A stretch of DNA of 64,000 nt from NCBI RefSeq assembly GCF_003790525.1, contig NZ_CP033635.1; one strand, written 5' to 3'. Made by a program: the position numbers and the translations under genes. The stretch is from Escherichia coli (lineage in GTDB: Bacteria; Pseudomonadota; Gammaproteobacteria; Enterobacterales; Enterobacteriaceae). Below the pieces are notes generated by a model. That model had not been told where the DNA came from and did no database searches. It was given only the letters and a program-made list of their open reading frames with translations. This document shows, piece by piece, positions 44,887 to 44,936 of this stretch; the first letter of the stretch is position 1; the number at the start of each line of letters is the position of its first letter.

Positions 44887-44936
44887 TTATGACAACTTGA
44901 CGGCTACATCATTCACTTTTTCTTCACAACCGGCAC
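44887..44936 (-). pseudogene. araC: orphaned native 3' tail of araC (last 15 codons plus stop)
   Basis: Minus strand reads gtgccggttgtgaagaaaaagtgaatgatgtagccgtcaagttgtcataa, i.e. (R)AGCEEKVNDVAVKLS-stop, the familiar araC 3' end; it is separated from the araC body by the 1.8 kb insertion. Confidence 0.8.

What the first reader, a model, noticed from the sequence alone, without database searches (positions are those of the whole stretch)
44887..44936. Orphaned native araC tail left 1.8 kb downstream of the gene: an imperfect direct repeat bracketing the insert
The 50 nt at 44887-44936 encode (R)AGCEEKVNDVAVKLS-stop on the minus strand, the authentic araC C-terminus, and sit the expected ~85 bp from yabI. 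The insert's other end carries a diverged copy of the same codons (ttcacatccagccct versus native ttcacaaccggcac). The insertion is therefore flanked by an imperfect ~15-bp direct repeat of the target, the footprint expected from site-specific or microhomology-mediated integration into the end of araC.
Basis: seen in the sequence. Interest (0 to 1): 0.55.

Follow-up and report, generated by a model that had tools for sequence, protein, structure and literature searches.

The report
Orphaned araC tail beside an inserted islet
A 1.8-kb islet carrying a probable toxin/immunity gene pair sits behind the arabinose regulator gene araC in this E. coli strain, cutting off the gene's native last 16 codons and leaving them as a dead remnant next to yabI; this is an ordinary insertion scar at a recombination hotspot, though the same scar also occurs in Citrobacter and Salmonella.

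Summary
Window 44887-44936 (minus strand) is a 50/50 copy of the Escherichia-type araC 3' end, AGCEEKVNDVAVKLS-stop. It lies the native 85 nt from yabI. The working araC (46747-47592) ends early at codon 281 with TAA TAA.

Empty sites are the rule. About 4,333 of 5,426 complete E. coli genomes have one, as do E. albertii and more than 60 other enterobacterial species. The insertion is therefore real and derived; 486 E. coli genomes carry it.

- The araC-side repeat copy is not a duplicated target. It is an alternative 281-codon araC end that arrives with foreign sequence and is shared with a different 5.6-kb metabolic island found in ST131-type strains.
- The islet is a mosaic: an island remnant, an IS630 remnant, and a two-gene cassette (a divergent DUF4056/Lipocone toxin-like protein plus a membrane-anchored partner).
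- It has no recombinase and no terminal inverted repeats.

The same cassette, with its own orphan tail, lies between araC and yabI in Citrobacter (a perfect 17-nt repeat in C. freundii) and in Salmonella.

Most likely one old short-homology or illegitimate insertion made the duplication, and flanking homologous recombination has since moved the allele around. This is a new member of a known kind, of modest interest.

The parts
44037..44801 (-). yabI (DedA-family membrane protein), the core gene flanking the islet on the orphan side
   Evidence: RefSeq annotation of the identical record. tblastn finds the orthologue next to araC in about 70 enterobacterial loci.
44802..44886 (.). Native 85-nt araC-yabI spacer, Escherichia type, kept intact next to yabI. 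It holds the conserved GGCTTGACG motif. The window reads GGCTCGACG because of the single difference at 44858.
   Evidence: 98.6% identical to empty-site E. coli over 44800-44940. Conserved across genera. Difference at 44858. A promoter-like TTGTCA-17-GACAAT lies on the minus strand at 44895..44867 (consensus match only).
44887..44940 (-). Orphaned native araC tail: the stop codon, codons 292 to 278, and two bases of codon 277 (44887-44936, exact). 44937 is a mismatch (TGT instead of CGT). 44938-44940 is TTT, matching the Phe276 codon. This is the right-hand repeat copy.
   Evidence: Translation. Identity to L003 and other Escherichia araC ends. BLAST end-points in 4,333 empty-site genomes.
44941..44955 (.). 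15-nt junction spacer between the stop of gene Y and the orphan tail. It is identical in four E. coli islet alleles.
44956..45378 (-). Gene Y, 140 aa. It has an N-terminal transmembrane helix and a domain of about 110 aa with two conserved cysteines. Probable periplasm-facing immunity or partner protein.
45385..46233 (-). Gene X, 282 aa, no signal peptide. A divergent DUF4056 ('CapCone-DUF4056' Lipocone) protein and probable lipid-head-group-targeting toxin or effector.
46234..46341 (-). Upstream and promoter region of X.
   Evidence: By-eye comparison of the sequences printed, not a tool result. BLAST homology to other genera ends at the X start codon, 46233.
46342..46527 (-). IS630-family transposase remnant, frameshifted and lacking its N-terminus. 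The annotated pseudogene is 46361-46500.
   Evidence: RefSeq annotation. 81% match of query positions 1643-1828 to an IS630-family transposase on a plasmid (H40).
46537..46712 (-). Remnant of the rikA/dap2/tctCBA island haplotype: the first ~14 codons of rikA (MYRDTHHEHIVRL, 46538-46579) plus the rikA-araC intergenic region.
   Evidence: 77.5% alignment of 46542-46900 to the B2-type island locus L002. Translations. Sequence comparison.
46713..46745 (.). Perfect 16+16 palindrome immediately after the new araC stop. It looks like a terminator on both strands and overlaps the second TAA.
   Evidence: I7.
46747..46767 (-). Replacement araC end: TAA stop, codons 281 to 277 (GAA TGT GGA GCT AGG) and the Phe276 codon. 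This is the left-hand repeat copy, matching the orphan at 16 of 21 positions. A second TAA follows at 46744-46746.
   Evidence: Identical in the B2-island haplotype. AGG GCA GGT variant in other E. coli islet alleles.
46747..47592 (-). Working araC, 281 codons. It is E. coli-like up to codon 276.
   Evidence: Annotation. Mismatch profile against 12 other araC genes.

Best explanation
The 50-nt segment is a dead remnant of the Escherichia-type araC: codons 277-292 plus the stop. It still sits beside its native 85-nt spacer and yabI. A 1.8-kb islet separates it from the gene.

The islet brings its own araC ending: codons 277-281 in different synonymous codons, a double TAA, and a perfect hairpin. 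AraC is therefore made as the 281-residue form normal for Enterobacteriaceae, without the 11-residue Escherichia extension.

The ~21-nt imperfect direct repeat is two homologous araC ends of different ancestry.

Inferred history:
1. One old illegitimate or short-homology event placed a two-gene cassette behind araC and duplicated about 17-21 nt of the gene's end. The event could have been homology-facilitated illegitimate recombination or a single crossover of a circular fragment. The cassette encodes a DUF4056/Lipocone toxin-like X and a membrane-anchored Y.
2. That allele has since persisted and moved within and between Escherichia, Citrobacter and Salmonella. It moves by ordinary homologous recombination in the conserved araC and yabI flanks. 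This keeps the flanks species-typical to within about 20 nt of the heterology.
3. In E. coli the araC-proximal part was later replaced by a piece of the rikA-island haplotype, probably through IS630.

Shown: the anatomy, the empty sites, the cross-genus synteny, and the absence of a recombinase.
Inferred: the founding mechanism, the order of events, and the toxin/immunity function.
For: - Orphan identity, spacing and resident araC end.
- Empty sites: 4,819 E. coli genomes carry the tail and 486 of them carry the islet. Across 80 araC loci the rule is 281 codons + ~121 nt + yabI.
- The 292-codon form differs by TAA->GAA at codon 282. It is present in E. albertii, cryptic Escherichia and most E. 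coli, so the orphan is the native Escherichia tail.
- The same X-Y cassette, in the same orientation between araC(281) and yabI and followed by an orphan tail, occurs in C. portucalensis, C. freundii and S. enterica. The repeat is a perfect 17-mer, CGCTGGATGTGAATAAA, in C. freundii. Its left limit is near codons 276/277 in all genera.
- The collinear alignment runs from yabI through the orphan, Y and X between genera at ~68%.
- The flanks are species-typical right up to the junction. SMS-3-5 araC is E. coli-like except for its last 18 nt. C. portucalensis filled and empty araC are nearly identical.
- X and Y diverge far more than the flanks. X is 80% identical between C. portucalensis and C. 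freundii, whose AraC proteins are 100% identical. This fits old alleles exchanged by recombination.
- No recombinase and no terminal inverted repeats.
- The site is a multi-cargo hotspot. It holds the rikA island in ST131-type E. coli and in Klebsiella spallanzanii, a retron Ec107-like reverse transcriptase in Yokenella, an Stf-like fimbrial operon in another Escherichia, and ERIC-like elements.
- In E. coli conjugation experiments, single-crossover integration of a fragment carrying a piece of the target duplicates that piece on both sides of the insert. HFIR joints use 3-10 bp microhomology (PMC3240628).
Against: - The founding event is not observed, and its mechanism cannot be read from a scar this old.
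- The spacers between the Y stop and the orphan differ in length between genera (19 to ~150 nt) and I could not align them. Independent insertions at the same point are therefore not excluded.
- The perfect 17-nt repeat in C. freundii looks like a fresh duplication or an att core.
- The C. portucalensis orphan differs from its conspecific empty site at two bases, including GAA for TAA.
- The 'one origin plus recombinational spread' model rests on parsimony, not on mapped recombination tracts.
- The X/Y function rests on motifs, weak Pfam scores and models. Y is frameshifted in C. freundii while X stays intact, which is odd for a toxin/immunity pair.
Confidence: 0.6

Rival explanations
1. Site-specific integration. 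The last ~17-21 nt of araC would be an attachment site. The cassette, or a larger element since decayed, would integrate there through a tyrosine or serine recombinase and carry a replacement gene end, as e14 and phage 21 do in icd. The two repeat copies would be attL and attR cores.
For: The insertion is at the same point, with a repeat of similar extent, in three genera. The 17-mer is perfect in C. freundii. The gene end is replaced so that araC stays intact. Several unrelated cargos start right after the araC stop.
Against: No recombinase gene is present in any of the filled alleles examined; only X and Y lie between araC and yabI in Citrobacter and Salmonella. The window repeat matches at only 16 of 21 positions. 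Each orphan resembles its own genus's araC tail, and the repeat copies differ between genera, rather than forming one conserved core. X-Y sits after araD in Trabulsiella and Enterobacter sp. ENT03 with no duplication of the araD end. The only flanking repeat there is an 18-nt, 78% pair in Trabulsiella that I took as chance. The other cargos at the site (retron, rikA island) leave no orphan tail.
Confidence: 0.13
2. Independent microhomology-mediated insertions. X-Y alleles would have entered separately in E. coli, Salmonella and each Citrobacter lineage. Each event would anchor in araC homology and join illegitimately near codon 277, because only joints there keep both araC and the yabI promoter intact.
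For: The junction spacers differ in length and sequence between genera and even between C. freundii and C. portucalensis. X-Y alleles are deeply divergent. HFIR and single-crossover duplications are documented in E. coli. A promoter-like element overlaps the tail.
Against: It requires the same rare outcome, a duplication of the same ~20 nt, at least three or four times. The collinear homology from yabI through the orphan into Y favours common descent of the whole block.
Confidence: 0.17
3. The filled state is ancestral and the K-12-type gene is derived. The islet-bearing allele with a 281-codon araC would be old. The 292-codon araC would arise when the islet was deleted by recombination between the two repeat copies. 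That would fuse araC to an orphan copy whose stop had drifted from TAA to GAA.
For: 281 codons is the family norm. K-12-type araC shares the GCC GGT codons and GAA with the orphan rather than with the resident end. The C. portucalensis orphan has GAA while conspecific empty sites have TAA.
Against: Empty sites with conserved ~121-nt spacing are found in more than 60 species and need no deletion. E. albertii and cryptic Escherichia have the 292 form without any islet. A crossover in the repeat would give TGT (Cys) at codon 277, not the CGT seen in every empty site. A single TAA->GAA substitution explains the extension more simply.
Confidence: 0.07

Closest known systems
e14 and phage 21 integration into icd, which leaves the icdC pseudogene fragment (own knowledge: Hill et al. 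1989, J Bacteriol; not checked in the paper library)
   Same: An insert enters the 3' end of a protein-coding gene and supplies a diverged replacement end, so the gene stays functional. The displaced native end is left as an orphan at the far side of the insert.
   Different: e14 and phage 21 carry an integrase and excise. Their duplicated segment is much longer (about 165 nt, from memory). Here no recombinase exists and the duplicated segment is only ~17-21 nt.
Homology-facilitated illegitimate recombination and single-crossover duplications (PMC3240628; de Vries & Wackernagel 2002 and Prudhomme 2002 as cited there)
   Same: There is a homologous anchor on one side (araC) and a non-homologous joint on the other. 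Foreign DNA is inserted. In E. coli the commonest product was a duplication of part of the homologous segment flanking the insert.
   Different: The experimental duplications were 109-950 bp, whereas this one is ~20 nt. Classical HFIR usually deletes recipient DNA rather than duplicating it. The event here is ancient and only inferred.
Displaced or orphaned 3' ends and orphan modules at Rhs, CDI and T6SS effector-immunity loci (PMC5361080 and references cited there)
   Same: An incoming toxin/immunity-type module displaces a resident gene end, which remains downstream as an orphan. HFIR is the proposed mechanism.
   Different: There the displaced end belongs to the toxin gene itself. Here it belongs to an unrelated housekeeping regulator, and the orphan is only 16 codons long.
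Chromosomal integration hotspots between conserved core genes (own knowledge: Touchon et al. 2009; Oliveira et al. 2017; not checked in the paper library)
   Same: One core-gene interval (araC-yabI) holds different accessory cargo in different genomes and genera. Turnover is explained by recombination in the flanks.
   Different: Hotspot descriptions do not usually include a duplicated gene end. Only the X-Y alleles show it here.
CapCone-DUF4056 family of the Lipocone superfamily, of which the lipid II phosphatase toxin TelC is a relative (bioRxiv 10.1101/2025.01.14.632903)
   Same: X has the Gly six residues before the His and the SxxSxxD motif. Its homologues hit PF13265. It comes as a two-gene unit with a membrane-anchored partner. 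One structural relative is an Rhs toxin tip.

Membership tests
Integrase-mediated integrative element with attB in a gene's 3' end (e14/icd type) | Element encodes, or is adjacent to, a tyrosine or serine recombinase | tested here: not met
   Between araC and yabI there are only X, Y and a dead IS630 fragment. X and Y have no recombinase domain. The Citrobacter and Salmonella alleles hold only X and Y.
Integrase-mediated integrative element with attB in a gene's 3' end (e14/icd type) | Identical core sequence at both ends (attL/attR) | tested here: inconclusive
   16 of 21 in the window and 17 of 21 in other E. coli alleles (counted by eye). Perfect 17 of 17 in C. freundii. Degenerate in C. 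portucalensis and Salmonella.
Integrase-mediated integrative element with attB in a gene's 3' end (e14/icd type) | Element supplies a replacement 3' end that keeps the target gene intact | tested here: met
   The resident araC ends RAGCE-TAA-TAA with islet-borne codons. It equals the 281-residue family norm.
Integrase-mediated integrative element with attB in a gene's 3' end (e14/icd type) | Excision and circularisation at the repeats | not testable with these tools
   Needs PCR or read-level data from SMS-3-5 cultures.
Transposon or IS insertion with target-site duplication | Terminal inverted repeats at the insert ends and a transposase | tested here: not met
   No inverted repeat pairs the two boundaries (44941 and 46746). 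The only transposase sequence is an internal, frameshifted IS630 fragment.
Transposon or IS insertion with target-site duplication | Short identical duplication of the target | tested here: not met
   The repeat is imperfect. Its araC-side copy is shared with a different island haplotype, so it is not a copy of this target.
HFIR / short-homology single-crossover product | Homologous anchor on one side of the insert | tested here: met
   araC is E. coli-like up to codon 276 and foreign-type only in its last 18 nt.
HFIR / short-homology single-crossover product | 3-10 bp microhomology at the illegitimate joint | tested here: inconclusive
   TTT (44938-44940) matches the Phe276 codon next to the joint, but in an AT-rich context.
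HFIR / short-homology single-crossover product | Recipient DNA is deleted (classical HFIR) or part of the homologous segment is duplicated (single crossover) | tested here: met
   About 21 nt of the araC end is duplicated and no recipient DNA is lost. Duplications were the major outcome in E. coli experiments.
Integration hotspot between core genes | Same flanking core genes, different cargo in different genomes | tested here: met
   Cargo in the araC-yabI gap: X-Y, rikA island, retron reverse transcriptase, fimbrial operon, ERIC-like elements, or nothing.
DUF4056 / CapCone-DUF4056 Lipocone (gene X) | Significant match to PF13265 | tested here: inconclusive
   X scores E=0.6. 20 of 30 aligned homologues score E<=0.1, one scores E<=0.001, and the best is 1.8e-6. 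Homologue P0068 carries PF13265 and matches X at 4e-38.
DUF4056 / CapCone-DUF4056 Lipocone (gene X) | Gly six residues before the active-site His, and an S/GxxSxx motif before a conserved Asp | tested here: met
   G27, H33, S133, S136 and D139 are invariant in 30 homologues. Motif definition taken from the paper.
DUF4056 / CapCone-DUF4056 Lipocone (gene X) | Lipid-head-group toxin activity neutralised by the neighbouring gene product | not testable with these tools
   Needs periplasmic expression of X with and without Y.

The most novel reading that the evidence does not exclude
The stop-codon region of araC would be a genuine, recurrently used insertion site. An unrecognised mechanism, recombinase-independent or acting in trans, would deliver small conflict-related cargos exactly behind codon 281 across Enterobacteriaceae. 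Those cargos would include the X-Y toxin/immunity pair, a retron and others. The ~17-21-nt repeat would be its core, with the perfect 17-mer in C. freundii a recent example.
Probability: 0.1. Interest if true: 0.7.

Novelty: new member of a known kind. Interest (0 to 1): 0.3.

Why it matters
- About one E. coli genome in five (486 + 582 of 5,426) makes a 281-residue AraC. It lacks the 11-residue tail of the K-12 protein that every pBAD vector and most AraC studies use. The tail is an Escherichia-lineage read-through of an old TAA stop.
- The araC-yabI gap is a cross-genus hotspot. It collects conflict genes (a Lipocone-type toxin pair, a retron), fimbriae and a metabolic island.
- The orphan tail is a datable scar. 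It could be used to trace how such alleles move between Escherichia, Citrobacter and Salmonella.
- None of this changes how gene insertion is understood.

Tried and rejected
- PADLOC and NCBIfam gave nothing for X or Y. Pfam gave nothing for Y and only E=0.6 for X.
- The word-based homologue search for Y found only near-identical proteins, so the Y alignment was built from neighbouring-gene translations.
- A literature search for araC + yabI + island returned only irrelevant papers. One search failed on a syntax error.
- The repeat finder did not list the boundary repeat among its top families, because many chance repeats in this AT-rich stretch are longer.
- A target repeat around X-Y at the araD-polB site was sought. 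Only an 18-nt, 78% pair turned up, which I took as chance.
- Terminal inverted repeats at the islet ends were sought and not found.
- Close X relatives on plasmids or phages were sought. Only ~40%-identical family members exist there.
- 'K-12 araC made by deletion of the islet' was considered and kept only as a low-probability rival.
- A chance origin of the 50-nt match was rejected outright.

Full report
**What is at the coordinates**

The window is E. coli SMS-3-5 (NC_010498.1). In a 5.3-kb comparison it differs from that record at one base, 44858. On the minus strand, 44884-44940 reads F-C-A-G-C-E-E-K-V-N-D-V-A-V-K-L-S-stop.

Positions 44887-44936 are identical to the last 50 nt of the 292-codon araC of ordinary E. 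coli (L003). Empty-site genomes align to the window up to 44936 at 100%, or up to 44940 at 98.8%, and no further.

The orphan stop lies 85 nt from the yabI start codon. That is the same spacing as between araC and yabI in empty-site genomes.

The annotated araC (46747-47592) ends SEFRAGCE, then TAA TAA, then a perfect 16+16 palindrome.

**The repeat**

Taken alone this is chance-level: 70 sites in the window match the 14-mer with 4 or fewer mismatches, and the repeat finder ranks many unrelated repeats above it.

Extended to 21 nt, 44920-44940 matches 46747-46767 at 16 of 21. This is the only such hit in 64 kb, and none appeared in shuffles. Both copies are araC codons 276-281 plus the next codon. 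The similarity is homology, not coincidence.

**Is it an insertion?**

Yes. Among 5,426 complete E. coli genomes:
- 4,819 carry the tail sequence, and only 486 of those carry the 1.8-kb islet;
- 582 carry a different 5.6-kb island in the same gap. It encodes rikA (PfkB kinase), a dap2-like DHDPS-family protein and tctCBA. These genomes have a 281-codon araC, no orphan tail and no K-12-type spacer.

A scan of one genome per species returned 80 araC loci. In about 60 of them araC (281 codons) is followed by ~121 nt and then yabI.

In most genera the sequence after codon 281 is TAA AAA GT(G/A) AA... In E. coli, E. albertii, two cryptic Escherichia and the Citrobacter amalonaticus/sedlakii group the TAA is GAA. 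The frame then runs on 11 codons to the next TAA.

The 292-residue AraC is therefore a lineage-specific stop-loss form. The orphan in the window is the native Escherichia version of that tail.

**Anatomy of the insert**

From yabI towards araC:
- native spacer, 44802-44886;
- orphan tail, 44887-44940;
- 15-nt junction, 44941-44955;
- gene Y, 44956-45378;
- gene X, 45385-46233;
- X upstream region, to about 46341;
- a frameshifted IS630-family fragment, about 46342-46527;
- the first ~14 codons and upstream region of rikA, 46537-46712, at 77.5% to the B2-type island over the 46542-46900 alignment;
- the palindrome, 46713-45;
- the replacement araC end, 46747-46767.

The islet is a mosaic of at least three histories. 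It is not one cassette.

The SMS-3-5 araC is E. coli-like up to codon 276. Only its last 18 nt, AGGGCTGGATGTGAATAA, differ from the K-12 type, and those 18 nt are identical to the B2-island haplotype. Other E. coli islet alleles read AGGGCAGGTTGTGAATAA. Their junction on the orphan side is identical.

**The same scar in other genera**

X has ~70%-identical homologues in Citrobacter, Salmonella, Trabulsiella and Enterobacter.

In C. portucalensis, C. freundii and one S. enterica genome, X and Y lie in the same orientation between a 281-codon araC and yabI. Each is followed by its own orphan copy of the araC end:
- C. freundii has a perfect 17-nt direct repeat, CGCTGGATGTGAATAAA;
- Salmonella has ~19 nt with three mismatches and one indel, and keeps TAA;
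- C. portucalensis has a degenerate copy with GAA, whereas its conspecific empty site (L016) has TAA.

In every case the repeat begins near codons 276/277. The alignment from yabI through the orphan into Y and X is collinear between genera at ~68%.

The flanks are species-typical right up to the junction. X and Y are far more diverged than the flanks. X is 80% identical between two Citrobacter species whose AraC proteins are identical, and Y is 46% identical between E. coli and Citrobacter.

In Trabulsiella and Enterobacter sp. ENT03 the same pair sits after the araD stop, ahead of the polB SOS box. The araD end is not duplicated there.

**The site is a hotspot**

Directly after the araC stop I also found:
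- the rikA island in Klebsiella spallanzanii, with its own version of the yabI upstream region, as in B2 E. coli;
- a retron Ec107-like reverse transcriptase in Yokenella;
- an Stf-like fimbrial operon in a divergent Escherichia;
- ERIC-like elements in several genera.

None of these leaves an orphan tail. The duplication is specific to the X-Y alleles.

**Mechanism**

No recombinase, live transposase or terminal inverted repeats are associated with the islet in any genus.

My reading is as follows.
1. One old illegitimate or short-homology event duplicated ~17-21 nt of the araC end around the cassette. It could have been HFIR or a single crossover of a circular fragment carrying an araC end.
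2. The allele then persisted and spread by homologous recombination in the araC and yabI flanks.
3. In E. coli a later exchange with the rikA-island haplotype, probably IS630-assisted, replaced the araC-proximal part.

Experimental support comes from E. coli conjugation work. Integration of a fragment that shares one segment with the chromosome mostly gives a duplication of part of that segment on both sides of the insert. HFIR joints use 3-10 bp microhomology (PMC3240628). HFIR has also been proposed for displaced, orphaned ends at effector-immunity loci (PMC5361080).

Recombination cannot easily convert the last ~20 nt next to a heterology. This explains why the foreign-type araC end and the first base of the orphan (TGT rather than CGT) survive while everything further out is species-typical.

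A promoter-like TTGTCA-17-GACAAT overlaps the tail (a consensus match only). The conserved spacer motifs may explain why only joints at the very end of araC are tolerated.

**Rivals**

- Site-specific integration fits the perfect 17-mer and the shared position. It has no recombinase, its repeats differ between genera, and at araD the cassette sits with no duplicated gene end.
- Independent microhomology events fit the unalignable junction spacers. They require the same rare duplication several times.
- The reverse history has K-12 araC created by deletion of the islet between the repeats, inheriting a drifted GAA. Three points argue against it: the family-wide empty sites, the 292-codon araC of E. 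albertii, and CGT rather than TGT at codon 277.

**The cargo**

X is a divergent DUF4056 protein.
- 20 of 30 homologues hit PF13265 at E<=0.1, while X itself scores E=0.6.
- Invariant G27...H33 and S133xxS136xxD139 fit the CapCone-DUF4056 Lipocone motifs. That family is related to the lipid II phosphatase toxin TelC (bioRxiv 10.1101/2025.01.14.632903).
- The AF2 model is confident, with pLDDT 81.8. It matches DUF4056 models and one Rhs C-terminal tip, but no solved structure.

A DUF4056 bicistron in Salmonella SPI-6 has been proposed as a T6SS effector (PMC11669294). A toxin/immunity pair is therefore the likely function, but it is not shown.

The genes decay in some hosts. X is truncated in many E. 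coli (P0005 cluster, 385 members; L096). Y is frameshifted in C. freundii.

**Verdict**

The orphan tail and the insertion are real. The proposed footprint of site-specific or microhomology-mediated integration is only partly right, because the two repeat copies are homologous araC ends of different ancestry at a mosaic islet in a recombination hotspot.

This is a known kind of scar, comparable to icdC beside e14 or to orphaned Rhs/CDI ends, in a new place. Its cross-genus spread and its cargo are moderately interesting.

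Noticed in passing
window 44858: This is the only difference from NC_010498.1 in 5.3 kb: window G, record A on the + strand. It changes the GGCTTGACG motif upstream of yabI, conserved across the family, to GGCTCGACG. All other E. coli and other genera examined have the T.
   Followed up: partly
window 46747-47592; loci L003, L011, L017, L020, L024, L025, L027-L029: AraC length polymorphism. 281 residues is the enterobacterial norm. The 292-residue K-12 form comes from TAA->GAA at codon 282. It is shared by E. 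albertii, cryptic Escherichia and the C. amalonaticus/sedlakii group. About 20% of complete E. coli genomes (486 + 582) encode the 281 form.
   Followed up: yes
L002 505-6083; L072; L087 7847-13424: A 5.6-kb rikA (DeoR-HTH/ribokinase fusion) / dap2-like / tctCBA island fills the araC-yabI gap in 582 E. coli genomes (ST131 and others). It also fills the gap in Klebsiella spallanzanii, with its own diverged yabI upstream region and no orphan tail.
   Followed up: partly
L065 7827-9125: In Yokenella regensburgei a retron reverse transcriptase lies immediately after the araC stop, on the opposite strand (PADLOC RT_Ec107-like, E=4.5e-124).
   Followed up: partly
L008 7847-14417: A divergent Escherichia labelled E. 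coli SCPM-O-B-8794 has araC about 10% different in DNA but identical in protein. It has an Stf-like chaperone-usher fimbrial operon right after a 281-codon araC. yabI is not within 7 kb.
   Followed up: partly
L092 3862-5361; L040 1181-2660; table: The araD-polB gap is a second hotspot at the ara locus. Many genera carry 0.7-1.5-kb inserts between the araD stop and the polB SOS box. Trabulsiella and Enterobacter sp. ENT03 carry the X-Y pair there.
   Followed up: partly
L009 (Photorhabdus namnaonensis contig, 6.5 kb), L010 (Xenorhabdus szentirmaii contig, 6.5 kb): Two short contigs in entomopathogen assemblies carry an E. coli-type 292-codon araC. The protein is 100% identical to the query over its 281 residues. 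The sequence breaks off just inside yabI (ATGCATCGAT...). I suspect contamination by a pBAD-type cloning vector.
   Followed up: no
window 45385-46233; L096 1665-2273; L088-L091 4855-5160: Decay of the cassette. X is shortened to 202 aa in many E. coli (cluster P0005, 385 members) while Y stays intact. In C. freundii the reverse holds: X is intact and Y is frameshifted.
   Followed up: partly
window 46713-46745: A perfect 16+16 palindrome, AAGAAAGCAAGGGGGG/CCCCCCTTGCTTTCTT, lies between araC and the rikA remnant. The B2-island version of the same hairpin is imperfect.
   Followed up: no
window 44867-44895 (minus strand): A promoter-like TTGTCA-17-GACAAT has its -35 hexamer inside the last codons of the orphan tail. 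Similar sequence (xTGTCATAA...CAGAxAAT) recurs upstream of yabI in Escherichia, Citrobacter and Salmonella. It is a possible yabI promoter.
   Followed up: no
one search hit 38; The X fold matches the C-terminal tip of an Rhs protein from Cryomorpha ignava. Family members ~40% identical to X occur on plasmids of Pantoea, Enterobacter, Cronobacter and Erwinia, including a 2.7-kb plasmid.
   Followed up: no
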